Source of the DNA: an uncultured Verrucomicrobiae bacterium
GTDB lineage: Bacteria; Verrucomicrobiota; Verrucomicrobiia; Chthoniobacterales; JAFAMB01
Reading direction: 5' to 3'
DNA: 64,000 nucleotides
Assembly: GCA_963762565.1 (NCBI GenBank)
Contig: CAVXLD010000001.1
Coordinates: 1,339,331 to 1,403,330, forward strand
Within the stretch, counting starts at the first letter, position 1. Every line of letters starts with the position of its first letter. A program made the translations under genes and the position numbers. Shown here piece after piece: positions 234 to 63,254 of the stretch. Under the pieces are notes generated by a model. The model searched no databases and was not told where the DNA came from. It was given only the letters and a program-made list of their open reading frames with translations.

Positions 234-398
234 ATGACAGATGACAAATGACAGATGACAAATCGAATAGCCAATTGCAAATCGCCACGCGTCGCGAATA
301 GGCGATAGCCACGCTGTCGCGAATAGTCGATAGCCAATCAGGAGATTGCCTTGGCTATTGGCTATTCAATTTGTCATTTGTCATCTGTCATTTGTCAT
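234..398. repeat. Inverted heptamer arrays (ATGACAR)x4 ... (YTGTCAT)x4 enclosing a nested AATAGCC-type inverted element
   Basis: Left arm 234-263 and right arm 369-398. Inner region 265-367 has AATAGCC/GATAGCC units, a ~24-25 bp direct duplication and TTGGCTATTGGCTATT. Confidence 0.95.
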
Positions 399-426
399 TT
401 TTCCGAAACTGTGGTTTTCAGACAGA

Positions 427-1179
427 GTGAATCCCACAGTGAACCCTACCCGCGTTATCTTTTGGAACGAATACATTCACGAAAAAAAGGACCCAGCGGT
501 TGCAGCTGTCTATCCGCAAGGAATCCATGCTCAGTTAGCGACCGCTTTTGCTCATGACTCCGCGTTGATCTGCGAAACGGCGACGCTGGAGGAAAAAGAG
601 CATGGCCTATCGGTCGACCGATTGGACGCTACCGATGTCCTGGTTTGGTGGGGGCATCTAGCGCACAAGCAAGTTGAGGATGAGATCGTGGAACGGGTCC
701 GAAAGCGGGTTCTGGAAGGAATGGGACTAGTGGTGCTGCACTCAGGGCACTATTCGAAGGTCTTTCAAAGATTGCTCGGGACCACCTGTTCGTTGGGTTG
801 GCGTGAAGCCGGTGAAAAAGAGCGGGTCTGGGTCTGCCAGCCAGGGCACCCCATTGCCCGCGATCTACCGGCTTACTTTGAGATCCCACACGAGGAAATG
901 TATTCGGAGCCTTTTGGTATCCCTAATCCGGACGAATTAGTTTTTATTTCCTGGTTCCAAGGTGGAGAAGTCTTTCGATCGGGCTGCTGTTGGCGGCGTG
1001 GCGCTGGAAAGATCTTTTATTTCCGGCCAGGTCACGAAACCTTTCCCACATACCGGCAACCAGAGGTTCTGCAAGTGATCCGAAACGGCATCGGATGGGC
1101 GACTCCGGATAGACCACGCTGGATTGATGCATGCCCGAATATAAAGGTCTCGCCAGAGGGAATTAGGCAGGAACGCTAA
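427..1179 (+). CDS. thuA: Trehalose utilization protein ThuA (class I glutamine amidotransferase-like)
   Basis: [32 protein letters not shown] and [13 protein letters not shown] motifs. Start moved to GTG 427 because the track start (346) lies in the repeat. Confidence 0.88.
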
Positions 1180-1188
1180 CGTTCCTAA

Positions 1189-1258
1189 ATGACAAAGTGA
1201 CAAATGACAGATCGCCGCGAGACTACGGCGCTTGGCGGGAAAATTTGTCATCTGTCAT
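1189..1258. repeat. Inverted heptamer arrays (ATGACAR) ... (YTGTCAT) between convergent genes
   Basis: ATGACAAAGTGACAAATGACAGAT ... ATTTGTCATCTGTCAT. Confidence 0.9.
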
Positions 1259-1260
1259 TC

Positions 1261-1479
1261 TCAACGTCTGAACAGCCAGCTCAATAACGTGAGGACGATG
1301 CTGATTAAAATGCACGTCACCAGCGGGAAATAGAAAGAGAAGTTCCCTTTTTGAACCGAGATATCGCCCGGCAGACGCCCCATCCAGCCAAACCAGCCAG
1401 GGAACTTCCACAAAAGCGCGCCTCCGATCGCAAGAACTATCCCGACGATCATCGCGATTCTGCCGATTTCCTGCATCAT
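1261..1479 (-). CDS. DUF2905-family small membrane protein
   Basis: GRLPGDI...NFSFYFPLVTCILISIVLT signature with two hydrophobic segments. Confidence 0.85.
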   Translation of the reverse strand: MMQEIGRIAMIVGIVLAIGGALLWKFPGWFGWMGRLPGDISVQKGNFSFYFPLVTCILISIVLTLLSWLFRR

Positions 1480-1519
1480 AGGAAATAAAGGGGAAGGAGT
1501 TCAGGAGTTCAAGGAGTTG

Positions 1520-1725
1520 GTAGGGCGAGGCTCCCGAACGGCCCAAGCCTGTTCGCGGGGATACTGATGCCTCATTTCTAAAGGTGCAGTTACGACTGTT
1601 GACCTGCCGAGCCGTGCGCTGCGCGACCCACGGCTCGGCGGGCTGCTTGACGTCGCACCGCGAAATCCGGGACGGAACATCGGGCTCCGCGAACTGTTGA
1701 AGGTCTTTCGGGAGCCTCGCCCTAC
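1520..1725. mobile_element. REPIN/MITE-like element, family A (~206 bp), flanked by inverted GGAGTTC(A/G)A arrays (1496-1519, 1726-1747)
   Basis: Terminal inverted repeats GTAGGGCGAGGCTCCCGAA ... TTCGGGAGCCTCGCCCTAC and internal hairpin CCGAGCCGTG..CACGGCTCGG. Related copies at 44934, 49481 and 51539. Confidence 0.8.
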
Positions 1726-1770
1726 CATCTCCTTGAACTCCTCGAACGTCTCGTTACGTTCGTCCCGCCT

Positions 1771-2718
1771 ATGTGGCTCGCGTTTTACGTTCATCACCTC
1801 GACCCTTTTCTGGTTCGGTTCTATGGAGATATTGGTATCCGTTGGTACGGTACCGCCTATCTGGCGGGATTTGTCGCCGCTTTTTTCCTCCTGAAATGGC
1901 TTGCTCGAAAAGGGTACGGCCCCCTCGCCGAATCCCAGGTAGCCGACTTCATCTTTTTTGCGGCTGTCTTCGGCGTTCTAGTTGGCGGACGTCTTGGCTA
2001 CGTTCTCTTTTATCGGCCTCAGATGATCTTTCATCCTTTGGAGATATTTCAAGTTTGGGACGGAGGAATGGCCAGTCACGGCGGAATTCTGGGACTAGTG
2101 ATCTTTTCGTTTATTTACGCTCGTCGACATCACATTTCCTGGACAGGAATCGGTGACAACCTGGTGGCGGCGGCGCCACTCGGATTAATGTTCGGCCGGC
2201 TAGCCAATTTCATTAACGGTGAGCTTTACGGGCGACCCACAACCGTACCCTGGGCCATGCAATTTCCTTCCGAGCTACTCGATCCCAGCTTCCCAGCCGA
2301 TAAGGTCAATGCTGTCATCGGAAAATGCGAGGCCGTGGACCCGGCCATTGTGCAGGCAGCAGACCCCATCAGGGCAATCATCGCTGCGGCTCGTACGAAT
2401 CCGCAGGTCCGGGACGTACTTGCCCAGTTTCTGACTCCAAGACATCCGAGCCAACTTTACGAGGCGTTCCTTGAAGGCTTGCTGCTTTTTATTTGTCTAA
2501 TCACCGTTCGCCTCCGGTTTCGACAACCCAATGGCATAACCACCGGCTGTTTCTTTCTTCTGTACCCGACGATGCGAATCATCGGGGAGCAATTCCGAGA
2601 ACCCGACGCGCCGTTAACCGGCCCATTCACCCGGGGACAATTTTTGTCTCTATTTATGTTCGTGGTCGGAATTGCGTTTCTGGTTTACGCACTGCGGTCC
2701 CGGAAAGGTGCAGCGTGA
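1771..2718 (+). CDS. lgt: Prolipoprotein diacylglyceryl transferase
   Basis: IRWYG, GGRLGYVLFY, WDGGMASHGG, GRLANFINGELYGR and RHPSQLYE motifs. Confidence 0.97.
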   Translation: MWLAFYVHHLDPFLVRFYGDIGIRWYGTAYLAGFVAAFFLLKWLARKGYGPLAESQVADFIFFAAVFGVLVGGRLGYVLFYRPQMIFHPLEIFQVWDGGMASHGGILGLVIFSFIYARRHHISWTGIGDNLVAAAPLGLMFGRLANFINGELYGRPTTVPWAMQFPSELLDPSFPADKVNAVIGKCEAVDPAIVQAADPIRAIIAAARTNPQVRDVLAQFLTPRHPSQLYEAFLEGLLLFICLITVRLRFRQPNGITTGCFFLLYPTMRIIGEQFREPDAPLTGPFTRGQFLSLFMFVVGIAFLVYALRSRKGAA

Positions 2719-2736
2719 TTCCGGGCGAGAGCTTAT

Positions 2737-3080
2737 CGTACTCGTCTCTCGTCCTTGAAAAGACTACAGCAGCCTGCCAGGTTGATCGTCCGAGCAGCGT
2801 CTGCAGAGCCCCAATCTGGAGGGGAGCCGCTTTGTAAGATTGCAGCTCTATGGGTTTGCAGCAGGCGGCTCCCGGGGATCACCCAGCGTAGCATTTGTGC
2901 CCAACGCTATCCGCGAATCGATACAGACACGCCCAAATCCCTGCAAAACCTGGAGCCGTTCCCGGGAGCCGCTTGCTGCGACGTGATAGAACTAGCGACC
3001 TATAAAGCGGCTCCCCTCCAGTCGCGCTCGGCTTCTCGTTGACCGCACAACCCTCTCTCGAGAACGAGGACGAGAACGAC
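2737..3080. repeat. Inverted hexamer-type arrays (TCGTAC/TCGTCC ... GGACGA/GAACGA) enclosing a REP-like doublet
   Basis: TCGTACTCGTCTCTCGTCCTTGA at ~2737-2758 and TCGAGAACGAGGACGAGAACGA at ~3058-3079. Confidence 0.7.
2817..3020. mobile_element. GGAG-type REPIN/MITE-like element (~204 bp)
   Basis: Terminal inverted repeats TGGAGGGGAGCCGCTTT ... AAAGCGGCTCCCCTCCA and inner inverted repeat GCAGCAGGCGGCTCCCGGG / CCCGGGAGCCGCTTGCTGC. Confidence 0.75.
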
Positions 3081-3124
3081 CTGCCACCACACGCTGGATC
3101 ACCTCCTAGATTCTCGCTCCTGAC

Positions 3125-3148
3125 ACTGCTTACTGCTTACTGATTACT
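3125..3148. repeat. Heptamer array (ACTGCTT)x3; contains the stop codon of ORF 3137-3319
   Basis: ACTGCTT ACTGCTT ACTGATT ACT; minus-strand TAA at 3130, 3137 and 3144. Confidence 0.8.
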
Positions 3149-3319
3149 CGGCCCGACAGCTCCAGCGCGCGCCATCTCAGGAACCACCTGCTCCAGCTCG
3201 CGCCGATGAAAAGCATCGCTAACGACCGCGCAGGTCATCAGGATGAAGCAAATTAAGAAAACGGCGCAGACAACATAGCCGAACCGGTAGCTATAGTCCG
3301 AGGTGTTTTCGGGTGACAT
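3137..3319 (-). CDS. Small hypothetical membrane protein
   Basis: 60-aa ORF with one hydrophobic helix, starting 6 bp after the helicase stop on the same strand. Confidence 0.55.
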   Translation of the reverse strand: MSPENTSDYSYRFGYVVCAVFLICFILMTCAVVSDAFHRRELEQVVPEMARAGAVGPSNQ

Positions 3320-3325
3320 TAGGTC

Positions 3326-5836
3326 TTAGGCTGATCTTGCTAGGCGTGAGATAAATCGCCCGGTGTACCGTTGACTCTGAGCGGGAGCCAATTGAGGCAA
3401 CGGATCACGGGCTGGGCTCCTGGTGGAATGCACATACCTTGAAGCCATCTCCCGCAACTGCAACCAGCGGTCCCAATCGTAAGCGGGCGCTTGTGTGATC
3501 TGCCGCAGCAAACTTCGCCATTCAGTAAGCGCTCGTTCGATATCCCCGTAGCGCACGCTCTCGCTGACCAGCCGATGGCGAGGTACCTGATGTGCCACGA
3601 CTTCCCGCACCACTTCTGAACCTCCTGGCCCATACGCAATGGGCAGCCCCATCTCGAGGTAACCTGAGTACTCACCCCGCTGATAGACCGTTTGGCAAAC
3701 CGCACCTAATCGTCCATGGGAATAGGTTTCATCCAAAGAAAACCGATGCCCGACACGAAGATTGGCTAAATCAAAAACCAAGTCCTCGATTGGATAATCC
3801 GACTCTTCAAGAGCAGCAGCGATCGCCAGGCCCTCTCCCTGATTGAAAAAACTGAAGATAATCCCGCGACGGGTGGGAACCCCTCTCTGATCCACCAGAC
3901 CAAGTTGTCGCCAAGCTAACGCGGGTGAAACCGAAAGCTCCAGAGCCTCACAATCCGCTTTTAGCGCACAAGGCTGGCAAACCGCTGGATAAGTTCGGCG
4001 GGTCTCGGGGTTTTCCAAGATACGGCCGCGGCCGTCTCGATAACCGGTGACCGGTAAGCCGGCAAACCGGAACCGGCCAAAAATCATCCCGTCTCGGACG
4101 CACTGTTCATGGAGCCGCCCACTCATCTCGGCTTCCACAATCGGTAGCACTTGCTTTAAGAATTCTTCTGGTTTCCAACCATTGACGGCAGCCAGCAAAG
4201 GAAACCGTTCACGAAGAAGCTTCCGCAGCCATTTGGCCGCCAACCAACTTCCTCTTTTTTCGGCTGCAAGCGGGATTTCTCTGCCGTATTCAAACGGCTG
4301 CCGGACCTGAGTCTGCCCCGTGGGCCCGTCCTGAGCTTGTCGAACGGGTTCACCAAACCTGATCTTACAAAGGGCGCCGAATCCGTGCTTTTGAGCAATA
4401 GCAGCCACCGTCAAAGCGGGCCGCCAATGTCCGGTCGGCAATCGAACCAACAGCTCGCCCAAGCCAGCCTCGCCAGGGGCGGGCAGCGGCTCCCAAAGTC
4501 CCTCCGGCGTAAGCATTTCCCGATCGTGTCTTCGGACCAGCCGCGCTCGTTCGCCATCGACCGGCAGGCCACAGAGCGGATCGCTTGCCGAATTTTCCTT
4601 AACGGCATAAAAGCTCTCGACGCCAACAGTCAGGGGTCTGGATGAAAAAAGCCCAGCGATTAGCTGCCTGGCTTTCAAAAAAGGGTCCTCGTCGCGTAAG
4701 GCCGCCTGGCGCATCACCCCGATCATAGTCGGCCAGTCCACCGGCTCTGCTCTCCTTAATTTGAGGGGGTGAGCGTCGTGCAGCCGGGGGATATCCGGCG
4801 TGACTAAAACGTAGCCGAACTCGTCCAGTCCGCGGCGGCCAGCCCGGCCAAACATTTGTAATAGTTCATCGGGACGCACTTGCCGTTGAAAATTGCCGGC
4901 CTGGTATTGAGTCCCGGTGACGAGGACTGAACGCATCGAAAAGTTAATGCCCGCCGCCAGCCCCATAGTTGCCACGACCACTCGTAGTTGTCCCCGTTTC
5001 GCCAATGGTTCAACGATGCCCGCCCGTACCGCATAGCTAAGTCCGCTGTGGTGGAATGCGACCCTGTTCCGCAACAATTTCCCTAACCGGTCGCCGGTCA
5101 ACGCCTGCTGTTCCTGGGTTAGGGATAAGGGCTCGTCGAGCGGTAGCGTCGACGAGAGTGCCGTAGCCAGGTCTTCGGCCATTTGCCGCCGTGGCGCGAA
5201 GATCAGCAGTGGCCCGAGATCGGCGAGCAGCGCTCTGCTAATCAGTTTCGGCCAATAGCCACGAACCATTCCTGGCGCCGCAACCGGGAGATCGCTCAGC
5301 ATCACCTCATCCAGCTGGACCGGCCGTTGTTGATGAGAGATCAATTCGGCCGGTCGCCCGATGCGGCGCAGCCATTCCACCACGTCAGCCGGGTTCCCGA
5401 CACTGCCGCTCAAGAGAAGTAGCTGGGTCTCCGGCGGCGCCAGCGAGAGGATAATTTCATAACCGGTTCCGCGAATTGGATCAGCGATGAGTTGATATTC
5501 ATCGACCACCAGCAGCCTCGGACCGTCCCGATGGAGAAAACGTCCCTTTTGAGTCTCCAAGGTTGCTACCACAACCCGCGCATCGAGGTTCTCAGCCAAA
5601 TCACCCGTCGAAATACCCACATCCCACCCTCGAGCCCGCCACTCAGCCAGCTTGTCATTAGCCAATGCTCGAGTCGGGACGGTAAAAACCGCCTGGCCTT
5701 TGAGGGATTCGTACAATAGCTCGAATATGTACGTTTTCCCCGCGCCCGTGGGGGCATGAACCACTACGTCTTTTCCCTCGCGCAACAGCTTGACCGCGTC
5801 CTGTTGCCACTTATCAGGGATGATCAAATTGACCAT
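3326..5836 (-). CDS. Ski2/HelY-like superfamily 2 DEAD/DEAH-box helicase
   Basis: APTGAGKT, VPTRALAN, VVDEYQ, LLSGS, FHHSGL, GINF and QMFGRAGRRG motifs. Confidence 0.9.
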   Translation of the reverse strand: MVNLIIPDKWQQDAVKLLREGKDVVVHAPTGAGKTYIFELLYESLKGQAVFTVPTRALANDKLAEWRARGWDVGISTGDLAENLDARVVVATLETQKGRFLHRDGPRLLVVDEYQLIADPIRGTGYEIILSLAPPETQLLLLSGSVGNPADVVEWLRRIGRPAELISHQQRPVQLDEVMLSDLPVAAPGMVRGYWPKLISRALLADLGPLLIFAPRRQMAEDLATALSSTLPLDEPLSLTQEQQALTGDRLGKLLRNRVAFHHSGLSYAVRAGIVEPLAKRGQLRVVVATMGLAAGINFSMRSVLVTGTQYQAGNFQRQVRPDELLQMFGRAGRRGLDEFGYVLVTPDIPRLHDAHPLKLRRAEPVDWPTMIGVMRQAALRDEDPFLKARQLIAGLFSSRPLTVGVESFYAVKENSASDPLCGLPVDGERARLVRRHDREMLTPEGLWEPLPAPGEAGLGELLVRLPTGHWRPALTVAAIAQKHGFGALCKIRFGEPVRQAQDGPTGQTQVRQPFEYGREIPLAAEKRGSWLAAKWLRKLLRERFPLLAAVNGWKPEEFLKQVLPIVEAEMSGRLHEQCVRDGMIFGRFRFAGLPVTGYRDGRGRILENPETRRTYPAVCQPCALKADCEALELSVSPALAWRQLGLVDQRGVPTRRGIIFSFFNQGEGLAIAAALEESDYPIEDLVFDLANLRVGHRFSLDETYSHGRLGAVCQTVYQRGEYSGYLEMGLPIAYGPGGSEVVREVVAHQVPRHRLVSESVRYGDIERALTEWRSLLRQITQAPAYDWDRWLQLREMASRYVHSTRSPARDPLPQLAPAQSQRYTGRFISRLARSA

Positions 5837-5860
5837 CGGGTTTCTACTTACAGTAGAACC

Positions 5861-5890
5861 ATACCCAATAGCAAATAGCCAATAGCCGAT
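5861..5890 (+). repeat. Heptamer array (ATAGCCA-type)x4, left arm of the four-helix-bundle cassette
   Basis: ATACCCA ATAGCAA ATAGCCA ATAGCCG AT. Confidence 0.9.
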
Positions 5891-5908
5891 GGGGTCTCGG
5901 TCCCAGCG

Positions 5909-6361
5909 TTACTCCGGGCGGGTCGGCTTTCGGAATTCACTGAGCGATTCCTTAATTCCCGCCTGTGAGCGGTAGCGTTTGCCTTTGACCGAAGAATCCT
6001 CGATTGAAGTGATCCAGGCCGTAATCTGGCGCGCACAGGATTTGGCCAATTCGAGAATTAGGACAAATTGCCCGCTCAATTCCGCCAGGCGCCGGCGATT
6101 TTTAACTACTGCTATCATCGAACGGACTTCACCCGCCGAGCCTCGAGCAATTCCCAGGTATCCCACCAACTCTTTGGTTGAGGCGCGTTCAAAGCCTTCC
6201 GCGATATTATTGGAAACAGAAAGCCCCGCTCGATCCAGCTGGTTTCGAAATCCCGAGGTCAATGGGCAGTTGAGGTCCTCCAGCAGATCCAGTACGGCGT
6301 TGTACAATCGAGCGGCTTCTTGCCAGACGGGCAGATCTTCGAAACGCTCATACTTAGCCAT
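5909..6361 (-). CDS. Four helix bundle protein (TIGR02436 / 23S rRNA IVP family)
   Basis: FEDLPVWQEA, QLDRAGLSVSNNIAEGFER and YLGIARGSAGEVRS signature; start at MAKYERF (ATG 6361). Confidence 0.92.
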   Translation of the reverse strand: MAKYERFEDLPVWQEAARLYNAVLDLLEDLNCPLTSGFRNQLDRAGLSVSNNIAEGFERASTKELVGYLGIARGSAGEVRSMIAVVKNRRRLAELSGQFVLILELAKSCARQITAWITSIEDSSVKGKRYRSQAGIKESLSEFRKPTRPE

Positions 6362-6371
6362 ACAACGCAAA

Positions 6372-6399: not shown

Positions 6400-6417
6400 C
6401 GCTCTATTTTGCCCCCT

Positions 6418-6445
6418 TTGCTATCGGCTATTGGCTATTGTCTAT
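6418..6445 (-). repeat. Heptamer array (TGGCTAT-type)x4, right arm of the four-helix-bundle cassette; contains the bioB stop
   Basis: TTGCTAT CGGCTAT TGGCTAT TGTCTAT, the reverse complement type of 5861-5890. Confidence 0.9.
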
Positions 6446-7367
6446 TCTGCAGGCCTAACGCCTGCAGCAGCTCCCGATCCTCATCCACCCCCGGATTCGC
6501 AGCGGTCAAGAGCTTGCTTCCGTAGAAAATCGAATTGGCACCAGCAAAAAAGCAGAGCGCTTGTGCTTCCTTGGATAGCCGAGTCCTCCCGGCGGACATG
6601 CGGACCCGCGCTTTTGGCAGAACGATCCTGGTGGTGGCTATCAATCGGACCAGCTCGAATACATCAACCGGCGGTTGCGCTTCCAATGGAGTCCCCGGCA
6701 TCGGGATCAGGCAATTGATCGGCACACTTTCCGGTGTCGGATCAAAGCTAGTCAGTACTTCTAACATTTTCAGACGGTCGGTTTCTGATTCTCCCATCCC
6801 AATGATACCGCCGCAGCAGACAGAGATACCGGCCAACTGAACCGCTTTGATCGTATCCAGCCGATCTTGAAAGGTATGGGTGGAAACTATCTCCCGGTAG
6901 AATTCTTCCGACGTGTCGAGGTTATGATTGTAGGCAGTAACTCCCGCTTCTTTCAGCTTCTTCGCCTCAGACGACCCGAGATGGCCTAACGTGACGCAGA
7001 CCTCCATGCCGAGACGGCTGACGTTTCGGACGATATCTAAGACTTGCTCGAATTTCGCCTCGCCTTCTCGGACGCCCTTCCAGGCAGCACCCATACAGAA
7101 TCGAGTGGAGCCATTTTCCCTGGCTCGTTCCGCTAACTTCAGAACCTCTTCGGTCTTCATTAGGCGGCCGGCTTCCACCCCGGTGGAGTAGCGGGCGCTC
7201 TGTGCACAGTAGGCGCAGTCTTCACTGCATCCGCCGGTCTTAATGCTCAGCAAGGTGCAAAGTTGGACCTCGTCCCGCGACCAATGTTCGAGATACACCG
7301 AGCGCGCCTGTGAGATCAGGTCGAAGAAAGGTTGAGAATAGATTTCTTGTAGTTCAGGGAGTGTCAT
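6435..7367 (-). CDS. bioB: Biotin synthase
   Basis: Radical SAM motif CSEDCAYC, plus YNHNLDTS, CCGGIIGMGE and FFAGANSIFYG. Confidence 0.97.
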   Translation of the reverse strand: MTLPELQEIYSQPFFDLISQARSVYLEHWSRDEVQLCTLLSIKTGGCSEDCAYCAQSARYSTGVEAGRLMKTEEVLKLAERARENGSTRFCMGAAWKGVREGEAKFEQVLDIVRNVSRLGMEVCVTLGHLGSSEAKKLKEAGVTAYNHNLDTSEEFYREIVSTHTFQDRLDTIKAVQLAGISVCCGGIIGMGESETDRLKMLEVLTSFDPTPESVPINCLIPMPGTPLEAQPPVDVFELVRLIATTRIVLPKARVRMSAGRTRLSKEAQALCFFAGANSIFYGSKLLTAANPGVDEDRELLQALGLQNRQ

Positions 7368-8147: not shown

Positions 8148-8254
8148 AACGGCGTTAAGCTTGGCGCGGACGCTCTGTTCCGTCAACCCGCTGGAAGTCA
8201 TCTGGAGCTAGAATCTAGGAGCTAGAAGAGCGTGTCGTGGCTCTAAGGTAATCA

Positions 8255-8422
8255 TTCTCGTCCTCGTCGTCGTTCTCGTCCTCGGAAAGTGGTGGGTTTG
8301 CTCGCCGAGTTGCATCGGTTGCAGAGCCAATCTCTGGCAAAAATCGAAAGTCCTAGGTCTTACACAATCTTGGGCGAAATTTCGCTTTTCGAGGACGAGG
8401 ACGACGACGAGGACGAGAACGA
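8255..8422. repeat. Inverted hexamer arrays (TCGTCC/TCGTCG/TCGTTC)n ... (GGACGA/CGACGA/GAACGA)n
   Basis: Left 8255-8284 and right 8390-8422; an outer degenerate GCTAGRA heptamer arm lies at 8204-8228. Confidence 0.9.
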
Positions 8423-12913: not shown

Positions 12914-12992
12914 ATGACAAATGACAAATGACAGATGACAAATTACCGAGGGCGGTGGCTCAATTTGTCATTTGTTATCTGTCATTTGTCAT
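12914..12992. repeat. Inverted heptamer arrays (ATGACAR)x4 ... (YTGTCAT)x4 with 17-bp spacer
   Basis: Directly visible; near-perfect ~31-bp hairpin arms. Confidence 0.95.
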
Positions 12993-40829: not shown

Positions 40830-41366
40830 ATGACCGACCCTGCACCACGAGACACTCCTAATCCGCTTGAAAACCCAGGACAAATCGAGCGTGAAGGGTT
40901 GGAAATAACAGAACGAGACATTGTTTTTGAATGTCCGCACTGTCAGGGAGAGCTGGTTGTCGACTTGGAAGGGGCCGGGTTGTCCTTCCCCTGCGTGCAT
41001 TGCGGGCAAACGGTCACGGTGCCGGAATATCACGGGCCATCGCTGCACTTTTTGGAAGCAGCTACGTCGAAATTGACCGAGGCATTACGGAACGCCCGGA
41101 AAGGATCGCCTAGAAAATTCGATCTCAATAATCGGGCGCCAGCCGAGTTGGCCGCCCGTCAGACCGAGCTTGAACAGCAGAGCCAGGAAATTCAGGCGCA
41201 ATCGGCGGAACTGAGAGGTCAGGTGAACCACGCCTTAATCCAGCTCCATCGTTATCAACTGAAGCTGGAAATGCTAACCGAAAGCCAATCCGAGCTGGAG
41301 ACGGAACTCAAGGCGATCGCAGAGCAACTCTCGCCCGAGGCTCCGCAGGTGAGAAGTGAGAAGTGA
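40830..41366 (+). CDS. Hypothetical protein with zinc ribbon (CPHC...CVHC) and coiled coil
   Basis: Two CxxC motifs and a heptad-rich C-terminus; stop codon lies in a GTGAGAA array. Confidence 0.75.
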   Translation: MTDPAPRDTPNPLENPGQIEREGLEITERDIVFECPHCQGELVVDLEGAGLSFPCVHCGQTVTVPEYHGPSLHFLEAATSKLTEALRNARKGSPRKFDLNNRAPAELAARQTELEQQSQEIQAQSAELRGQVNHALIQLHRYQLKLEMLTESQSELETELKAIAEQLSPEAPQVRSEK

Positions 41367-41558
41367 TTGGCGAGAAATGAGAGGCTCACAAGGCGCTTCG
41401 TTCTCGTCCTCGTCGTCGTCCTCGTCCTCGAATCCGGCCACGCGGAGTGATGGAGTGATGGAGTGATGGAGTGATGCGAGCTACAGAGCGGAATGCGACG
41501 TCCCTGCTCAGGTCCACGGGACGCCGCTCTACCTTTCACTTTTCACCCTCAGCCTCTC
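41349..41558. repeat. Nested repeat cluster: GTGAGAA heptamers, hexamer arm, (GGAGTGAT)x4, GTAG-REP-like hairpin, inverted TTTCACY heptamers
   Basis: Approximate blocks at 41349-41384, 41398-41431, 41443-41475, 41485-41532 and 41533-41558. Confidence 0.8.
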
Positions 41559-41739: not shown

Positions 41740-41827
41740 GGATGGGTGCCAGAGCGGTCGATTGGGCACGCCTGGAAAGCGTGTGTACCGCAAGGTACCG
41801 AGGGTTCGAATCCCTCCCCATCCGCCA
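41740..41827 (+). tRNA. tRNA-Ser (anticodon GGA)
   Basis: Acceptor stem GGATGGG/CCCATCC, anticodon loop CTGGAAA, long variable arm GTACC-GCAA-GGTAC, T-loop GGTTCGAATCC and encoded CCA. Confidence 0.97.
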
Positions 41828-44862: not shown

Positions 44863-44933
44863 GAGCTTTTAAGTAAAATCCTGAAAAAGTGCAATTTCAG
44901 GTAACAGAGAGGTTCGAGGAGTTCAAGGAGCTG

Positions 44934-45018
44934 GTAGGGCGAGGCTCCCGAAATACCGAACGGTGTCAACAAGGTGCCCCATTTTTGTTGAATTGACCCG
45001 TCCGGAGCCTCGCCCTAT
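44934..45018. mobile_element. Short family A REP doublet flanked by inverted GGAGTTC(A/G)A arrays
   Basis: GTAGGGCGAGGCTCCCG ... TCCGGAGCCTCGCCCTAT; flanks GTTCGAGGAGTTCAAGGAG and CGAACTCCTCGAA. Confidence 0.78.
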
Positions 45019-45298
45019 CGAACTCCTCGAAAACTATTTTCGAAACTTCCGTACGTTTCTTGGGTTACGTCGTGTGAAGTAACGTGTGTGAGAGCGACTG
45101 CGAATTCGCCCGGGAGCGGCGAGTGAAGTGATCGCTGGGAACGCGAACGACTTCGACACAATCTGCTTCGCCCGAACCTGGGTTTTTGGCGGCCGCAGGT
45201 TATCTCTGGTTGGTTGATTGGGTGCAATATCACCTCTTGTCGACCGATCGGAGAAAAAGCAAACGTGGGAAAAACCTTAACAACTGTTTATCAACATC

Positions 45299-47331: not shown

Positions 47332-47475
47332 AAGCTCTAAGTTCCAAGTTCCAAGTTCTAAGTTTTAAGTTTAAGGTTGCTGGTTTTATGTTTCACCGGG
47401 CATCTCGCCGGAGCGCCTCCCCCGCGTCAGGCCAACAACTTAAAACTTGAAACCTATAGCTTAAAACTTAGAACC
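47332..47475. repeat. Inverted heptamer arrays (AAGTTYY)x6 ... (RRAACTT)x5
   Basis: Left 47332-47373 and right 47436-47475. Confidence 0.85.
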
Positions 47476-48515: not shown

Positions 48516-48622
48516 AGTGGACGCAGTGGACAAAGTGGACCGAGTGAACTCGTCGACGTCAAAGTTCGGGAAAGCGTTGTCTACTCCGTCTACTTGGTCC
48601 ACTACGTCCACTTTTGTCTACT
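48516..48622. repeat. Inverted nonamer arrays (AGTGGACnn)x4 ... (nGTCYACTn)x5
   Basis: Between convergent genes; same family as 18821-18921. Confidence 0.88.
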
Positions 48623-49398: not shown

Positions 49399-49448
49399 CT
49401 GGTGTACCGTGTCGCCCAGGAGTTCGAGGAGTTCAAGGGACAGGAGTG

Positions 49449-49717
49449 GTAGGGCGGGGCTCAGGAAAAGGTCTCTTTTGGTGGGGCGAGGCTCCCGAAA
49501 TGCCAATCAATTCTCCCAGAGCAGAGCGCATAGACGCTAACCTTTGGATCAGCAACGCCCAGAGGTGCGCCGAGCCGTGGCCCACGATAGACCACGGCTC
49601 GGCGCGTTTAATGGTGTGACCACGCTGTCCAGCGGGAAGCACCACAGACTTCGTCTTAACTATGGGTTTTTCGGGAGCCTCGCCCCACCAAAATCCTATT
49701 CCGGAGCCTCGCCCTAC
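49449..49717. mobile_element. Nested family A elements: a 208-bp copy (49481-49688) inside a short copy
   Basis: Outer GTAGGGCGGGGCTCAGGAA / TTCCGGAGCCTCGCCCTAC; inner GTGGGGCGAGGCTCCCGAA / TTCGGGAGCCTCGCCCCAC. Confidence 0.82.
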
Positions 49718-49720
49718 CAG

Positions 49721-54984: not shown

Positions 54985-54995
54985 ATCGCGGCCGG

Positions 54996-56899: not shown

Positions 56900-57793
56900 T
56901 CATACCATGAGTTCAGTGATTGAGCGCATCCCCAGTGACGGTTCTTCGGTATCAACCACCAAGCCGCGAGGCGCGCCGTAATCAGACCCGACGTTGACTC
57001 CAGCAAAGCCGCTCAAATCGAGAGGTCCTGCCGCCCGATGGGTGTGCCCGCACACTAAACCAGCGATTCGGGTCGAATAAGGTCGCAACATTTCGCCCAT
57101 CGCCCGGTTGCCCAAATACGCTCGGAAAAAGGCGCGAATCGGCGGGTTTTCCGGGTCAAGCATCGAGGAATCCGGAATCCCCAAAAGCTCTTCAAACGGG
57201 GGAGTATGCAGCGTTATAAAAATCCGGGCAGAATCCGTTGCCAAGATCCTGGCTTGGACAGCTTCCACCTGCGCATGAGCAACTGTGAGAACATCCGCTG
57301 ACCTTGGCATCCAATCGAAGTCGCGCCAACGAAGTGTCGTATCGATCGGCGGCCGGCCACGTAAATAATGGTCGCGGGTGACAATTTTCCCCTCGTAGCG
57401 TAGCTCGGGAACGGCGAAACCGAGATCGTAATGGCCGTAGCCTCCCACGAATACTAGTTCCTCAAAGCAGAAATTCTCTTGGTCCAGCAGCGTCACGTCG
57501 TATCGCTGGGCTGGAGTTTGCCAGAACTGTTCCAAGGTCGCTCCCAAGGTTCTACACCCAGCAGCGGCGCCACCCCAGAAATCATGGTTACCAAGCACAA
57601 CGATGATGGGCCCATGAGGAAAAAGGCGGCGAAGTTCGCACAGGGCCGTATCCGCCTCAGCCGCCACCGCTAGATCTCCTGCGATCAGCAGTGCGTCAGG
57701 GCCCGCCTCCCGCACCCATCGGGCGAGCGTGGCAAGCACGATCGGGCGCCAGACCCGGACGAGGTGGAGATCAGCGGTAACCAGCAGCTTCAT
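56900..57793 (-). CDS. Calcineurin-like metallophosphoesterase
   Basis: ADLH, AGD, GNHD and GHTH motifs. Confidence 0.88.
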   Translation of the reverse strand: MKLLVTADLHLVRVWRPIVLATLARWVREAGPDALLIAGDLAVAAEADTALCELRRLFPHGPIIVVLGNHDFWGGAAAGCRTLGATLEQFWQTPAQRYDVTLLDQENFCFEELVFVGGYGHYDLGFAVPELRYEGKIVTRDHYLRGRPPIDTTLRWRDFDWMPRSADVLTVAHAQVEAVQARILATDSARIFITLHTPPFEELLGIPDSSMLDPENPPIRAFFRAYLGNRAMGEMLRPYSTRIAGLVCGHTHRAAGPLDLSGFAGVNVGSDYGAPRGLVVDTEEPSLGMRSITELMV

Positions 57794-57800
57794 TGTGAAT

Positions 57801-57934
57801 AATAGCCGATCGCCAATAGCCGATCGCCAATAAAACTATTCCCCGAGCAACTTCTACCCATCGAATTCATTTCGTGGCGCAGGCCGAGCGCCATTTTTCT
57901 CGCTTTGCGCATTGGCTATCGGCTATTGGCTATT
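57801..57934. repeat. Empty AATAGCC-type inverted heptamer element; right arm contains the rdgB stop
   Basis: AATAGCC GATCGCC AATAGCC GATCGCC AATA ... ATTGGCTATCGGCTATTGGCTATT. Confidence 0.9.
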
Positions 57935-58517
57935 CGTTCTGTAAGAACGCCACCGCTTGCGCGAGTGCCCGGGCGCGATGGCTGAGAGTGTTTTTTATTT
58001 CACTCGGCAATTCCGCGAAGGTCTGATTGTAGCCGGCCGGGATGAACATCGAATCGTAGCCGAATCCCTGGTCGCCACGCTCGAAAGCGACCACGATTCC
58101 CTCCACCGTACCCGAAAACGAGCCCAGTATCTCGCCGTTGCTGGCCAGAACCATCTCACATTGAAAACGAGCCGGGAATTCTTGAGCTGGTAGCGTCTTC
58201 AACCGCCCGATGAGCTTTTGGCGGTTCTGCGCGTCTGTGGCTCCTTCGCCCGCGAATCGCGCGGAATACGCCCCTGGCTCTCCATTCAACGCATCGACGG
58301 TCAAACCGGAATCATCAGCTAAAACCAGGTCTGAAAACGCCTCAGAGATAGCGACCGCCTTCAGAGCCGCGTTCTCAGCGAAAGTTGAACCGGTTTCATC
58401 TACTTTGGGCGCGTTTGCCATGGCGGTGAGATCGCGAACCTCCCACGCGGGACCCAACATTTGACCGATTTCCTTTGTCTTATGTGTGTTCCAGGTTGCA
58501 ACTAAAAGTGTTTGCAT
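57930..58517 (-). CDS. rdgB: Non-canonical purine NTP pyrophosphatase (RdgB/HAM1)
   Basis: AT.N.HK..E, ADDSGL.VDALNG.PG.YSAR, GFGYD and SHR motifs. Confidence 0.95.
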   Translation of the reverse strand: MQTLLVATWNTHKTKEIGQMLGPAWEVRDLTAMANAPKVDETGSTFAENAALKAVAISEAFSDLVLADDSGLTVDALNGEPGAYSARFAGEGATDAQNRQKLIGRLKTLPAQEFPARFQCEMVLASNGEILGSFSGTVEGIVVAFERGDQGFGYDSMFIPAGYNQTFAELPSEIKNTLSHRARALAQAVAFLQNE

Positions 58518-58563
58518 CGTGACATGACACCCCGAAAGTTGCTCCTCCCGGGTCACAAAACAA

Positions 58564-61158
58564 ATGAGTGAGAGACGAAAACAGTATCCATTCTCCGATT
58601 TCGAGCCGAAGTGGCAACACCTTTGGGAAGAGCAAAAGACTTTCCAGGTCGCTAACCCAGGTGAACCGGGCTTCGATCCGGCGAGACCGAAGTTTTACGT
58701 GCTGGATATGTTCCCTTATCCCAGTGGGGAGGGGCTTCACGTTGGACATCCGGAGGGCTATTCAGCAACTGATATTCTCTCTCGCTACAAACGGATGCGA
58801 GGGTTCAATGTTCTGCATCCAATGGGTTGGGACGCGTTTGGGCTCCCAGCCGAACAGTTTGCGATCAAGACCGGCCAACACCCTTCCGTAGCGACCGCAC
58901 AAAACGTCGCCCGGTTTAAGCAACAGCTGACCCGGATCGGCCTCAGTTTCGATTGGAGCCGGGAGATCAATACAACTGATCCCGGCTATTTTCGTTGGAC
59001 CCAGTGGATTTTCCTGCAGCTATATAACTCCTGGTTCGATCCCATCAAAAAGAAGGCACGACCAATCGCTGACTTGGAAGCGGAACGAAAAGCGACTCAT
59101 TCGGAAGAATCCGCTGAGGCCCGGCGAGAGTATCTGGATCAACACCGTCTAGCCTATGTTGCCGAGGCGCCGGTCAATTGGTGTCCTCAGTTAGGTACGG
59201 TCCTAGCCAATGAAGAGGTGGTCGACGGTAAAAGCGAGGTCGGCGGGTTTCCGGTGATTCGCCGCCCGATGCGCCAATGGATGTTGCGCATCACAGCATA
59301 TGCGGATCGTCTGGTGGACGAGCTCGCCGGACTAGATTGGCCCGAATCAATCAAATTGCTGCAACGAAACTGGATTGGACGAAGTGAAGGCGCAGAGGTT
59401 GATTTCCGGATCCCGCGACGAAAGGCGAAGATCACCGTTTTCACTACTCGCCCAGATACCCTGTTTGGCGCCACCTACATGGTGTTAGCGCCGGAGCACG
59501 AGTTGGTGGATAAAATTACCACGGCTCCTCAGCGTGCTGCCGTTGACGCCTACCGAGCCGAGGTCGCGCAAAAGTCAGACTTGGAAAGGACAAACCTAGC
59601 CAAGGAAAAGACGGGAGTTTTTACCGGCGGGTTCGCGATTAATCCTGTCAACGACCAAAAGATTCCGATCTGGATCGCGGATTACGTTCTTTCCAGCTAC
59701 GGCACGGGGGCCATCATGGCCGTTCCCGCACATGACGAGCGCGATTTCGAGTTTGCGCAAAAGTTCGGCCTCGAGATCCGTCAAGTGATCGAGCCGCCAA
59801 GCCCCGTTGAAGGGTGTTTCGCCGGTTCCGGAACTGCCATTAACTCTGATTTCTTAAATGGACTGCCCACCGACGAAGCTAAGGCTAAGGTTATCGATTG
59901 GCTGCAAGAGCGCGAGTTAGGGAAGAGGTCGGTAAACTACAAACTGCGGGACTGGCTGTTTTCCAGGCAACGTTACTGGGGCGAACCGTTCCCCATCGTT
60001 TGGCGAAACAGCCGTCATGAGGCGCTTACTGAGGCCGATCTTCCGGTAATTCCTCCGCCACTGGAGGATTATCGACCAACGGGCACGATCGAGCCGCCGC
60101 TTTCGAAAGCGAAGGACTGGGTCGAGCTCTCGGACGGTGCCCGGCGAGAACTGAACACGATGCCGCAGTGGGCCGGGTCCTGCTGGTATTATCTGCGTTA
60201 CATTTCGCCTGGCGATCAACAGCGATTCGTAGACGCAGAGGCTGAACGCTATTGGATGGGCGGCGGGAAGCCCGGTGGAGTCGATCTTTACGTAGGTGGA
60301 ACCGAGCATGCCGTTTTGCATCTGTTGTACGCGCGATTTTGGCATAAAGCCCTGTTTGATCTGGGGTATGTATCCACCGTTGAACCCTTTCAACGGTTAG
60401 TTAACCAGGGAATGATCCTCGGCGAAGATAACCAGAAGATGTCCAAAAGCCGGGGTAACGTGATCAGCCCGGATGAAATCATCGGCGAGTACGGCGCGGA
60501 CTCACTGCGTCTGTACGAGATGTTCATGGGACCGCTCGAAGCGACGAAACCGTGGAGCATGGCCGGCGTCGAAGGAGTCTACCGATTCCTGGCCAGGGTG
60601 TGGCGCCTCGCCATGATCGAGAACCAGGAAGGAACCTGGGAAATGTCGCCGAATTTGAGCGAGGTTGAGCCGGATCCACAACAAAACAAGGTCATTCATG
60701 TCACCATCAAGAAGGTCACCGAAGACATCGAATCTTTGGCCTTCAACACGGCGATCTCCCAGATGATGATCTATGTTAACACCTTCACCACCGCCGACCG
60801 GCGGCCGGTAACGGCGTTGCGCACGTTGTTGATTTTGCTGAATCCGTTCGCTCCTCATTTGTCCGAGGAGCTCTGGCAACGGCTAGGCCAACGGTTCTCA
60901 ATTTTCTCCGGGCAAATTTCTCAACAACCTTGGCCGGTCTGGGATGCCGCTTATTTGATCGAGGACGAGGTAGAAATTATCGTCCAAGTGAACGGGAAGC
61001 TTCGGGACAAGATCGCCGTTCGCAAGGATCTCGATAACAAGACTCTGGAAGAGTTGGCCTTGGCTGCCCCGAAAGTCAAAGAGAGTACGGCCGGTAAAAC
61101 CGTTCGAAAAATTGTGATTGTACCGAACCGGGTAGTGAACGTGGTGGTAAGCCAGTAG
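58564..61158 (+). CDS. leuS: Leucine--tRNA ligase
   Basis: MFPYPSG.GLHVGH, FTTRPDT editing domain, KMSKS and C-terminal QVNGKLR. Confidence 0.99.
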
Positions 61159-61164
61159 CGCCCG

Positions 61165-61281
61165 GGAGGGATCGCGTCCTCGCGATCCGCCGTCTCGACG
61201 ACCAGCGTGTTCCGAACCCAGGGTTACTCGACGCTAATTGCGCTGCTCCGTCTTCCCGGCGCGCGGGGACGCGCGCCCTCC
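61165..61281. mobile_element. GGAG-type REP doublet (REPIN), family B
   Basis: GGAG-GGATCGCG-TCCT-CGCGATCC ... GGCGCGCG-GGGA-CGCGCGCC-CTCC. Confidence 0.85.
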
Positions 61282-61340
61282 CAGGGTGGGCCACGCCGCA
61301 GCTTGCCCCTTGTTCTTTCCTACGCGAAGTAGACGTCTCT

Positions 61341-62132
61341 ATGGGACCGTTAACTGACTACCACGTGCACACGCCTCTGTGCCGGCACGCGGAGGGAACC
61401 CCGGCAGAGTTTATCGAAGCAGCGAAACGGGCGGGCCTGGTTGAGATCGGTTTCGCTGATCACAACCCCATGCCCGAACCTTTCGATGACTGGCGCATGA
61501 CTTATGAGGAGCTTCCGCGCTACTTCGATTTTGTGGCGAAAGCGCGCGCATCCGGATTCCCCGTCCGGCTCGGCCTGGAATGCGATTTTATTCCGGGGCG
61601 CGAAAGCTGGATTGAGACACTGGCCGGATTAGCGCAATGGGATTACCTGATCGGTAGCGTCCATTATCTTAGTTCTGGCTGGGACGTGGACAATCCCAAG
61701 CACCTATTTCGGTTCACTGAAGATTCGGTGGAATCGATCTGGGACCGGTACTGGGAGCTTTTTGTTCAGTGTGTCCGCAGTGGACTCTTCGATTTTGTTG
61801 CCCATCCGGATTTACCTAAGAAATTCGGCCACCGGCCGAAAGGCGACCTAGGTCGTTATTACGAGCCGGCAATTCAAGCGCTGCATGAGGCCAATGTCGC
61901 TTTTGAGATCAACACCGCCGGACTGCGTAAGCCAGCAAACGAGGTTTATCCGGCCCAACAGTTTCTGGAACTGGCTGCTAAAGCCGGTATCCCGCTGGTC
62001 ATTAATTCGGATTCGCATTCACCTGCTGAAATTGGGGCCGGGTTCGACGTAGCGGCCGCTCGTGCCAGGGAAGCCGGTTACCGCGAAGTGGTTCGGTGGG
62101 TGGGGCGAAGACGTTCCGCGGTGGAACTTTGA
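61341..62132 (+). CDS. PHP-family histidinol-phosphatase (HisJ-like)
   Basis: DYHVHT, DHNP, GSVHY, HPDL, EINTAG and NSDSH motifs. Confidence 0.88.
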   Translation: MGPLTDYHVHTPLCRHAEGTPAEFIEAAKRAGLVEIGFADHNPMPEPFDDWRMTYEELPRYFDFVAKARASGFPVRLGLECDFIPGRESWIETLAGLAQWDYLIGSVHYLSSGWDVDNPKHLFRFTEDSVESIWDRYWELFVQCVRSGLFDFVAHPDLPKKFGHRPKGDLGRYYEPAIQALHEANVAFEINTAGLRKPANEVYPAQQFLELAAKAGIPLVINSDSHSPAEIGAGFDVAAARAREAGYREVVRWVGRRRSAVEL

Positions 62133-62183
62133 GGGGCGGGTGTCAGGCGCGCCAAGTCCTCCGGTCACGGCTGGGACTAGAAT

Positions 62184-62267
62184 ATGACAGATGACAGATG
62201 ACAGATGACAGATCGACCAACCGGGGTGGCTGCTGGAATTTGTCATTTGTCATTTGTCATCTGTCAT
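62184..62267. repeat. Inverted heptamer arrays (ATGACAG)x4 ... (YTGTCAT)x4
   Basis: Directly visible; 24-bp spacer. Confidence 0.95.
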
Positions 62268-62323
62268 TCTCGATAGGCTCTATGTGACTTATGTAACGTA
62301 GTGGCGTACAACGACCCGCTAAG

Positions 62324-63202
62324 ATGCTCCTTAAAACATTGCGTCATGAGGTATCGTTCCCGCGCCGGCCTTTAGTGATGGGCATTGTGAACATCAATGA
62401 TGATTCGTTTTCTGGGGACGGCAGTTTGGACGTAGGCCAGGCAATCGCTCAGGCCCGATGCTTAGTCAGCGACGGCGCCGACATCATTGATGTTGGCGGC
62501 GAAAGCGCCCGTACAAATCGCGGCCCGATCTCTGTCGCGGAGGAAATCTCGCGCGTAACACCGTTTGTGACCAGATTCGCGGAGTGCCACGCGGCCGTTA
62601 CTCCGGTTGATAGCGAACAGATTTTTCCTCCCATGCTCTCTTTGAATACGTGGCGACCAGGTGTGCTTCGCGCTTTGCTCCCGCTCGGAATCGACATCAT
62701 CAATGATATTGGCGCGCTAGCCGGCAATGAGAACGCGGCGGCGGCGGCAGAATACGGAGCAGCTCTAGTAATTATGCATTCGGTGGGCGAACCAAAGGTG
62801 CCTCACTTCCACGTCCAGTACGCCGATATCATGGAAACGTTGGACGATTTCTTTGCGCGCAAAATCGCAGAGGCAACTAAAGCCGGCTTATCCCGAGAAG
62901 CGATCATTCTTGACCCAGGGATCGACTTTGCCAAACAGCGCCCCGACAATCTCCGGATTTTCCGGGAGCTAGGCCGCTTGACTCGGTTTGAGCGATTGAT
63001 TCTTTTACCGGTATCACGTAAGACCGTCATCGGAGAGGTTCTCGATCTGCCGGACCCTAAAGACCGTGATGCTGGAACCATGGCCTGCGTGGTGGCCGGC
63101 ATTCAGCATGGAGCAGGCATTTTCCGGGTTCATAATGTCAACGCAACCAGTCTAGCTGTTCGAACCATCTGGTCGGTGTTAGAAGGGACGACGCTTCCAT
63201 AG
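62324..63202 (+). CDS. folP: Dihydropteroate synthase
   Basis: MGIVNIN.DSFSGDG, DVGGESAR, IND, LDPGIDF.K, SRK and RVHNV motifs. Confidence 0.95.
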   Translation: MLLKTLRHEVSFPRRPLVMGIVNINDDSFSGDGSLDVGQAIAQARCLVSDGADIIDVGGESARTNRGPISVAEEISRVTPFVTRFAECHAAVTPVDSEQIFPPMLSLNTWRPGVLRALLPLGIDIINDIGALAGNENAAAAAEYGAALVIMHSVGEPKVPHFHVQYADIMETLDDFFARKIAEATKAGLSREAIILDPGIDFAKQRPDNLRIFRELGRLTRFERLILLPVSRKTVIGEVLDLPDPKDRDAGTMACVVAGIQHGAGIFRVHNVNATSLAVRTIWSVLEGTTLP

Positions 63203-63219
63203 AGAAGGCGAAGCCGATC

Positions 63220-63254
63220 CCACCAATCACTAATCACCAATCACCTCTCACACC
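63220..63254. repeat. Heptamer array (TCACCAA-type); contains the UDG stop codon
   Basis: CCACCAA TCACTAA TCACCAA TCACCTC TCACACC. Confidence 0.75.

What the first reader, a model, noticed from the sequence alone, without database searches (positions are those of the whole stretch)
234..63254. Unrelated heptamer array families share one design: inward-facing stop codons in all three frames, and five genes end inside them
Seen: the units differ in sequence (ATGACAR, ATAGCCA, AGTAAGC, GTGAGAA, GTGATTG, GCTAGRA, some AAGTTYY units, and the octamer GGAGTGAT). Each carries TGA, TAG or TAA on the strand reading into the element. Periods of 7 or 8 are not multiples of 3, so three units stop every frame (e.g. 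TAG at 5869/5876/5883; minus-strand TAG at 6421/6428/6435/6442). ORF 3137-3319, bioB (6435), ORF 40830-41366 (41364), rdgB (57930) and the UDG gene (63241) all use a stop inside an array. Established: TTTGTCA matches the STRR2 heptamer consensus of filamentous cyanobacteria. Inference: the arrays either grow from or target stop codons, or act as translation insulators that keep the hairpin or cargo free of ribosomes.
Basis: partly seen in the sequence, partly recalled or inferred. Interest (0 to 1): 0.72.

Follow-up and report, generated by a model that had tools for sequence, protein, structure and literature searches.

The report
Repeat hairpins that borrow gene stops
Mirror-image runs of 7-base repeats sit tight against gene ends throughout this soil bacterium's genome, and runs that happen to contain a stop codon end about 150 genes, while stop-free runs halt just outside; this is likely a side effect of spreading repeats being tolerated at gene ends, not a shared stop-codon design.

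Summary
The coordinates are right: all five genes are real and end inside an array. The arrays are the arms of inverted-repeat hairpins, about 15 word families genome-wide; one hairpin here encloses a four-helix-bundle (TIGR02436) gene.

The claimed shared design fails. 286 of 797 paired arms have no inward stop. By family, 6 of 7 heptamers carry one (3.6 expected, P=0.04), but only 8 of 15 families overall (P=0.25). Across phyla, 47 of 102 such arms have inward stops (41 expected) and 41 have outward ones (22 expected). What recurs is a pyrimidine-AG word: CAG is as enriched as TAG.

A boundary rule is real. 77 of 221 genes facing stop-bearing arms end inside them, against 3 of 54 facing stop-free arms, which pile up within 10 nt of the stop. 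Stops fall about evenly in units 1, 2 and 3 (61/49/43), as passive capture predicts. Arms read by ribosomes keep their stops no better than unread arms.

Stop-donating heptamer arrays, inverted heptamer pairs and stop-donating REPs are published. This scan has noted these cassettes before (69 notes on other genomes) and this stop pattern elsewhere in this genome.

The parts
234..261 (+). ATGACAR arm (4 units), outer left arm of a nested hairpin between divergent genes; no gene reads into it
352..365 (-). ATAGCCA arm (2 units) nested inside the 234-398 hairpin
371..398 (-). ATGACAR partner arm
1187..1258 (.). ATGACAR hairpin between convergent genes; both genes keep their own stops (1179 and 1261)
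   Evidence: fold z=-2.7
1496..1511 (+). GGAGTTCA octamer arm: counter-example, 0 inward frames closed, 2 outward
3127..3147 (-). GTAAGCA/GTAATCA arm, no partner found; supplies the TAA of ORF 3137-3319 in unit 2
3137..3319 (-). Conserved 60-aa ORF; relatives end with their own stop and lack this arm
5861..5888 (+). ATAGCMR arm on the helicase side of the four-helix-bundle cassette; faces a gene start
5909..6361 (-). Four-helix-bundle gene (150 aa), cargo of the cassette
   Evidence: TIGR02436 69.6 bits, cut-off 24; PDB 2gsc XCC0516 E=2e-7
6418..6445 (-). ATAGCMR arm that supplies the bioB TAG (unit 2); predicted to pair with 5861-5888
6435..7367 (-). bioB; last residues NRQ are arm-derived
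8204..8227 (+). GGAGCTA arm; CTAG gives TAG on both strands
8252..8422 (.). TCGTCC hexamer hairpin, no inward stop
12914..12992 (.). ATGACAR hairpin; upstream gene has its own stop 64 nt away
   Evidence: fold z=-7.3
40830..41366 (+). Conserved 178-aa ORF ending in unit 3 of a GTGA arm (VRSEK); 3 relatives also end in this arm
41349..41383 (+). GTGAGAA/GTGATTG arm; weak partner at 41533-41546
41444..41475 (+). GGAGTGAT octamer array nested in the same element, no partner found
47332..47474 (.). AAGTTYY hairpin; stops on both strands; upstream gene stops 5 nt outside
48517..48611 (.). GTGGACnnA nonamer hairpin between convergent genes, essentially stop-free
   Evidence: fold z=-5.8
57801..57933 (.). 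ATAGCC hairpin; the arm at 57913-57933 supplies the rdgB TAG in unit 1
   Evidence: fold z=-4.7
57930..58517 (-). rdgB; one residue longer than the FLRS-stop end common in other genera
62184..62267 (.). ATGACAR hairpin; upstream gene has its own stop 51 nt away
   Evidence: fold z=-8.9
63217..63251 (-). GTGA arm, no partner found; supplies the TGA of the glycosylase gene in unit 2
63241..63861 (-). Uracil-DNA glycosylase family gene; a relative uses unit 1 of the same arm

Best explanation
These arrays are the mirror-image arms of a genome-wide set of repeat hairpins, some enclosing a four-helix-bundle gene, and the stop codons in them are likely a by-product of word composition that then decides how far an arm is tolerated at a gene's 3' end. 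Shown: arms of both kinds lie tight against gene ends; arms without an inward stop almost never cross the coding boundary; arms with one often do, and the gene then ends at whichever of the first three units is in frame. Inferred: insertion, unit slippage and deletion keep moving the arm-gene junction; a stop-free arm that crosses would add a long tail and is mostly purged, while a stop-bearing arm adds at most about six residues and is nearly neutral, so it replaces the native stop. Inferred: the recurring feature of the words is a purine-rich inward strand with a (C/T)AG or RG step every 7 nt, of which TAG is one spelling. Speculative: that lattice is what the four-helix-bundle oligomer or a host factor recognises.
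For: Boundary rule: 77 of 221 genes facing paired stop-bearing arms end inside, against 3 of 54 for stop-free 7/8-mers (Fisher P=4e-6); 31 of 51 of the latter stop within 10 nt of the arm. Same trend at four-helix-bundle loci of other phyla: 27 of 67 neighbours end in stop-bearing arms; 36 of 61 own stops lie within 10 nt of stop-free arms. Unit use 61/49/43, chi-square P=0.19. Against outgroup orthologs, array-ended proteins are shorter 12 times, equal 5, longer 16; controls 143/294/147 (equal length 5 of 33 vs 294 of 584, P=5e-5). A stop-free GGAGTTCA arm behind rdgB adds 9-13 residues in three relatives. No inward excess across phyla. AG in 71 of 82 distinct inward words (48.5 expected); CAG 28 vs 9.3, TAG 29 vs 14.1, TGA 10 vs 14.1, TAA 1 vs 6; the G is the least variable base within arms, 1.2%. 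No stronger stop retention where ribosomes arrive.
Against: In this genome 6 of 7 heptamer families have an inward stop against 3.6 expected from letter shuffles (P=0.04) and P=0.001 against intergenic heptamers; several of them use TGA or TAA, which the (C/T)AG motif does not explain, and AG is only weakly enriched in this genome's words (13 of 17 vs 10.5). The fetched parts of two relatives show the same bias (shared families, so not independent). Unit 1 is somewhat over-used and 5 of 9 unit-1 cases keep the native length. Across phyla 14 of 81 neighbours of stop-free arms appear to read through the arm and 6 end in it; my ORF rule there is crude. How the elements move was not shown.
Confidence: 0.68

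Rival explanations
1. Selection among element families: in this lineage, words with an inward stop spread better because they can also occupy the last codons of genes and become hard to lose once a gene depends on them.
For: 6 of 7 heptamer families carry an inward stop. The largest family (GTGAnnn, 491 arms) also has the highest take-over rate, 55 of 112. ATGACAA and ATAGCAA replace each other at one site and both keep a stop.
Against: Stop-free families are also abundant (TCGTCC 391 arms, GGCGAnnG 156, CGCAGATTW 142, GGCGTTY 116). Across phyla stop-bearing words are no more frequent per locus (47 of 102) than per distinct word (39 of 82).
Confidence: 0.15
2. The arms are seeded at, or targeted to, stop codons: the native stop becomes the first unit or is the insertion target.
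For: Unit-1 stops often sit at the orthologous codon (5 of 9 vs 0 of 24, P=0.0005). At one locus a relative's TAA and this genome's TGA lie in the same place and in register with the array. rdgB ends within one codon of the conserved stop.
Against: Most arm-supplied stops are in units 2-4 (94 of 155). Words are family-wide, not locus-specific. Mirror arms facing gene starts carry the same stops. Stop-free arms are placed as tightly.
Confidence: 0.1
3. Translation insulator: all-frame stops are kept to hold ribosomes off the hairpin or its cargo.
For: 418 of 797 paired arms close all three inward frames, 25 close all three outward.
Against: Stop retention per unit, read vs unread arms: 145/161 vs 173/184, 140/144 vs 107/111, 119/130 vs 43/44, 529/554 vs 282/296 (all P>0.2). 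Share of arms facing a gene end 305/548 vs 231/447 (P=0.22). About half of four-helix-bundle cassettes lack inward stops. A ribosome stopping in unit 2 or 3 would have to melt most of a 21-28 nt arm (inference), the opposite of keeping it free.
Confidence: 0.07

Closest known systems
TAACTGA heptamer arrays of Beggiatoaceae, Cyanobacteria and Bacteroidetes (MacGregor 2015, PMC4679880; abstract and passages)
   Same: Intergenic heptamer arrays; the paper states that forward repeats give stops in all three frames and so lie at ORF ends, with 13 genes ending in them.
   Different: One word, described as direct repeats near start codons and read as regulatory; here about 15 words, arranged as inverted pairs with fixed polarity, and a stop-free comparison group.
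Inverted GGGAATC heptamer pairs of Xanthomonas (Rehm et al. 2015, PMC4692102; passages and section 10)
   Same: Convergent pairs of about 4 units (70 and 75 cases), intergenic, close to or overlapping stop codons on the coding strand.
   Different: GGGAATC itself holds no stop on the inward strand (sequence), which supports placement at gene ends without stops; interpreted as G-quadruplexes; no cargo gene seen in the passages read.
GTAG-family REPs with RAYT transposases (Di Nocera et al. 2013, PMC3733652; one passage)
   Same: Multi-copy intergenic hairpin repeats whose termini 'often provide' the TAG stop of flanking ORFs.
   Different: REPs are 20-40 bp palindromes with a terminal tetranucleotide; here the arms are tandem words and the enclosed genes are four-helix-bundle or GxxExxY genes.
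Cyanobacterial STRR heptamer repeats (PMC2670836, one passage; the STRR2 consensus is recalled from Mazel et al. 1990, not seen)
   Same: 7-bp tandem repeats able to form hairpins between genes; the ATGACAA family reads TTTGTCA on the other strand.
   Different: Different host group; function unknown there too; common descent not tested.
Four-helix-bundle / 23S rRNA intervening-sequence protein family (TIGR02436; XCC0516, PDB 2gsc)
   Same: The cargo gene at 5909-6361 is a member.
   Different: It lies between protein genes in heptamer arms. Searches found no paper on this packaging; this scan's notes describe it many times.

Membership tests
Paired heptamer SSR arrays (Xanthomonas GGGAATC type) | Tandem 7-nt units, mostly intergenic | tested here: met
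   820 period-7 arrays, the commonest period; few arms deep in genes, e.g. 7 of 439 GTGA arms
Paired heptamer SSR arrays (Xanthomonas GGGAATC type) | Convergent inverted pairs with fixed strand polarity, able to fold | tested here: met
   e.g. 197 inward-paired vs 11 outward-paired GTGA arms; predicted folds z -2.7 to -8.9
Paired heptamer SSR arrays (Xanthomonas GGGAATC type) | G-tracts able to form quadruplexes | tested here: not met
   The dominant heptamer words lack GGG runs
Stop-bearing heptamer arrays (TAACTGA type) | Stop in all three frames on one strand; genes end within the first units | tested here: met
   for 6 of 7 heptamer families
Cyanobacterial STRR2 | Consensus word match | tested here: inconclusive
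   TTTGTCA is in the sequence; the consensus is recalled and was not found
REP/REPIN-RAYT system | 20-40 bp palindrome with GTAG/CGTC terminal tetranucleotide | tested here: not met
   Arms are tandem words with unrelated loops
REP/REPIN-RAYT system | Cognate Y1 transposase flanked by the repeats | not tested
   12 PF01797 matches exist in the genome; their flanks were not examined
TIGR02436 four-helix-bundle protein | HMM score over the curated cut-off | tested here: met
   69.6 bits vs 24
ORF-bearing 23S rRNA intervening sequence | Lies in an rRNA gene and is excised from the RNA | tested here: not met
   It lies between a helicase gene and bioB; excision from mRNA could not be tested, the one RNA run holds 5% of the words
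MITE | Target-site duplication and conserved internal sequence | tested here: inconclusive
   Loops look unrelated between copies; no clean empty site among the bioB junctions read

The most novel reading that the evidence does not exclude
The arms are 7-nt-period (C/T)AG or RG lattices read by the four-helix-bundle ring protein of a transposase-free mobile cassette. In this lineage the element has entrenched itself by taking over the stop codons of about 3.6% of genes, so that it cannot be lost cleanly and its hairpin folds only when ribosomes are not terminating in it, a translation-coupled switch for mRNA stability.
Probability: 0.12. Interest if true: 0.7.

Novelty: new member of a known kind. 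Interest (0 to 1): 0.27.

Why it matters
The headline claim, a convergent all-frame stop design, would have been striking, but it does not hold. What remains is a clean natural experiment: stop-bearing and stop-free repeat families in one genome show how purifying selection on protein ends sets the limit of repeat spread, and how 155 of 4,295 proteins came to end in repeat-coded residues such as GEK, SEK and NSK. It also points work on the unexplained bacterial heptamer repeats away from stop codons and towards a periodic AG/G word and the four-helix-bundle cargo gene.

Tried and rejected
Network of one-change bridges between word families: 50 of 51 words join up, but 13 cross-family bridges is close to the roughly 9 I estimate by chance, so I do not use it to claim common descent. 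Gene-less hairpins as four-helix-bundle remnants: shown for one relative's bioB hairpin, but in this genome only 10 of 421 loops hit (7 cassette loci, some counted twice, plus one 15-residue remnant; reversed control 0), so it is not shown as the general origin. Joints that skip the cassette in metagenome contigs have under 30 letters on one side and other letters between; I read them as other copies of the repeat. DUF559 as cargo: one match in the genome, flanks not followed. Paper searches (four-helix bundle or GxxExxY with repeats; STRR and heptamers; REPs and stops) found no paper that states or tests an inward-stop rule across families. PMC3184786 (passages) had nothing on stops. No supplements were read; the tables of PMC4679880 and PMC3733652 may list more stop overlaps.
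Full report
Observation. The arrays are not free-standing: most are one arm of an inverted pair, predicted to fold into long hairpins. The pair at 5861-5888 and 6418-6445 encloses a four-helix-bundle gene (TIGR02436; nearest solved structure XCC0516, PDB 2gsc, five chains). Contigs of four soil runs from four studies cover this cassette in pieces, and one lacks 7 bases at the inner edge of the bioB arm (the best run may be the window's own source). 'Inward' therefore has a meaning. But the list of families was selective: the same window holds arms with no inward stop or with stops on both strands.

Genome census. The window lies in a 6.1-Mb, 15-contig genome found in soil metagenomes; earlier scan notes call it a verrucomicrobium, which I did not check. 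Period 7 dominates (820 of 1,470 arrays). From 211 automatically found inverted pairs I defined 17 word patterns in 15 families by hand. Polarity is fixed in every family. Eight loci match the four-helix-bundle family over its cut-off, and GxxExxY matches fall at 12 loci; most of those read have inverted arms of their own word. Genes were called with a self-trained model, so 3' ends are more reliable than starts.

Is there a shared stop design? Counted by arm the bias looks large: 418 of 797 paired arms close all three inward frames, 25 all three outward, and 286 have no inward stop. Arms of one family are copies, so the family is the unit. Six of 7 heptamer families have an inward stop, against 3.6 expected when each word's letters are shuffled (P=0.04); 7 of 11 for 7- and 8-mers (4.95, P=0.12); 8 of 15 overall (6.4, P=0.25). 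Against plain intergenic heptamers the 6 of 7 gives P=0.001, so much of the effect is the purine-rich inward strand. For independent words I took 190 four-helix-bundle loci (30 from this phylum; the best 80 of 601 from genomes; the best 80 of 589 from metagenomes). Twelve had flanks too short, 68 showed no pair, 110 did, 102 of them heptamers. Inward stops: 47 of 102 (41 expected, P=0.10); outward: 41 (22 expected). Among 82 distinct words 39 and 30 (33 and 16.7 expected); inward-only 20, outward-only 11 (P=0.15). What these words share is AG on the inward strand (71 of 82, 48.5 expected), with CAG (28 vs 9.3) as enriched as TAG (29 vs 14.1) and TGA and TAA not enriched; the G is the least variable base within arms. 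TCAG, TTAG and CTAG also explain the outward stops.

Why do genes end in arms? Of genes facing a paired arm of 3 or more units, 77 of 221 end inside stop-bearing arms; only 3 of 54 cross stop-free 7/8-mer arms, and 31 of the other 51 stop within 10 nt of the arm. Counting unpaired arms too, 155 of 4,295 genes end in a stop-bearing arm, in units 1, 2, 3 and 4 at 61, 49, 43 and 2. A near-even split is what arbitrary junctions give; my one-mismatch arm extension inflates unit 1. In 2.0 of the 5.6 Mb of an outgroup genome, 33 array-ended genes have array-free orthologs: 12 are shorter here, 5 equal, 16 longer, against 143/294/147 for controls. All 5 equal cases are unit-1 stops (5 of 9 vs 0 of 24). 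So a minority are native stops fused with the first unit, and most are displaced stops, moved either way. The close relative G002 (0.42 Mb examined) gives too few cases to test (8).

The five genes. rdgB ends FLRS-stop in most other genera and FLQNE-stop here; in three relatives a stop-free GGAGTTCA arm at the same place adds 9-13 residues. bioB ends in ATAGC-, ATGACA- or ATGACC-type arms in 9 of 30 loci read by eye, and here has one of the shortest tails. The glycosylase uses unit 2 here and unit 1 of the same arm in G003, a small frame shift caught by the next unit. ORF 40830 ends in the arm in all three relatives found. ORF 3137's relatives lack the arm and use their own stops.

Insulator test. 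If the stops were kept to halt ribosomes, arms that a gene reads into should keep them better than mirror arms facing a gene start. They do not (four families, all P>0.2), and stop-bearing families are no more often downstream of genes (305/548 vs 231/447, P=0.22). A second-hand passage reports that E. coli REP hairpins within 15 nt of a stop stall ribosomes and trigger decay (PMC5082802), so a regulatory side effect is possible but untested here.

Dynamics at one site. Between bioB and the helicase gene, relatives carry the four-helix-bundle gene in either orientation, with ATAGC or ATGACA arms, a decayed copy with one arm of each word, a gene-less hairpin, or a 65-nt spacer with no arms. The gene-less hairpin of G003 matches the G002 cassette for about 150 nt, then jumps to the far arm; its loop still encodes a piece of the four-helix-bundle C-terminal part (E=2e-10). 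Because the arms mirror each other, an inversion leaves the neighbour's stop intact (inference). The mechanism of movement is unknown.

Mechanism. Shown: tight abutment of all arm types, crossing of the boundary almost only by stop-bearing arms, near-even unit use, two-way length changes, no extra stop retention. Inferred: junction drift filtered by selection on protein tails. Speculative: recognition of the periodic AG/G lattice by the four-helix-bundle oligomer; its pentameric, Avd-like nature and the analogy to TRAP binding of (G/U)AG repeats are recalled, not tested.

Prior knowledge. All-frame stops in heptamer arrays with genes ending in them (PMC4679880), inverted heptamer pairs at gene ends (PMC4692102) and REP-donated stops (PMC3733652) are in print.

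Verdict. Real features, cherry-picked generalisation. New member of a known kind; interest 0.27.

Noticed in passing
L001, L003, L008, L012, L024, L002 (bioB-helicase junction in G000, G002, G012, G023, G007, G003): The four-helix-bundle cassette occurs in both orientations at the same junction, swaps its arm word (one copy has one arm of each), and in G003 is reduced to a gene-less hairpin whose loop is a remnant of the gene.
   Followed up: partly
G000 C1, C7, C10, C11, C15: GxxExxY genes at 12 loci mostly sit between inverted arms of 8-9-nt words (for example CGCAGATTA, ACAGAGACAC, AAAGGTCAC), a parallel cassette class without all-frame stops.
   Followed up: partly
genome-wide: Arm-derived C-termini recur: GEK 15, SEK 11, NSK 8, SER 6 of 155; several tails also carry SPEAR/SPEAP read from the GGGCGAGGCTC palindrome family.
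   Followed up: no
window 1494-1760, 44912-45030, 49418-49720: Composite palindromes with GGAGTTCA(A) arms around GGTAGGGCGAGGCTCCCG...GGAGCCTCGCCCTACC cores, resembling REP-type repeats; the genome has 12 Y1 transposase matches.
   Followed up: no
window 57801-57832: A 14-nt period arm (ATAGCCG alternating with ATCGCCA) pairs with a plain ATAGCC arm, a two-word higher-order repeat.
   Followed up: no
G000:C5:382149-382625: A four-helix-bundle gene with stop-free TCGTCC arms reads through its own downstream arm and overlaps the next gene's start.
   Followed up: no
window 6413-6420 (run X5): One contig lacks 7 bases at the inner edge of the bioB arm, a one-period length difference within the species or a close relative.
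   Followed up: no
window 41740-41827: tRNA-Ser(GGA) followed by an ECF sigma gene region that has no DNA match in three relatives (query positions about 2330-4290), a likely insertion at the tRNA.
   Followed up: no
L073, L074 (G009, G017): Hexamer arrays (AGTGTC/AGTGCC)n begin on the last two letters of the glycosylase TAG stop.
   Followed up: no
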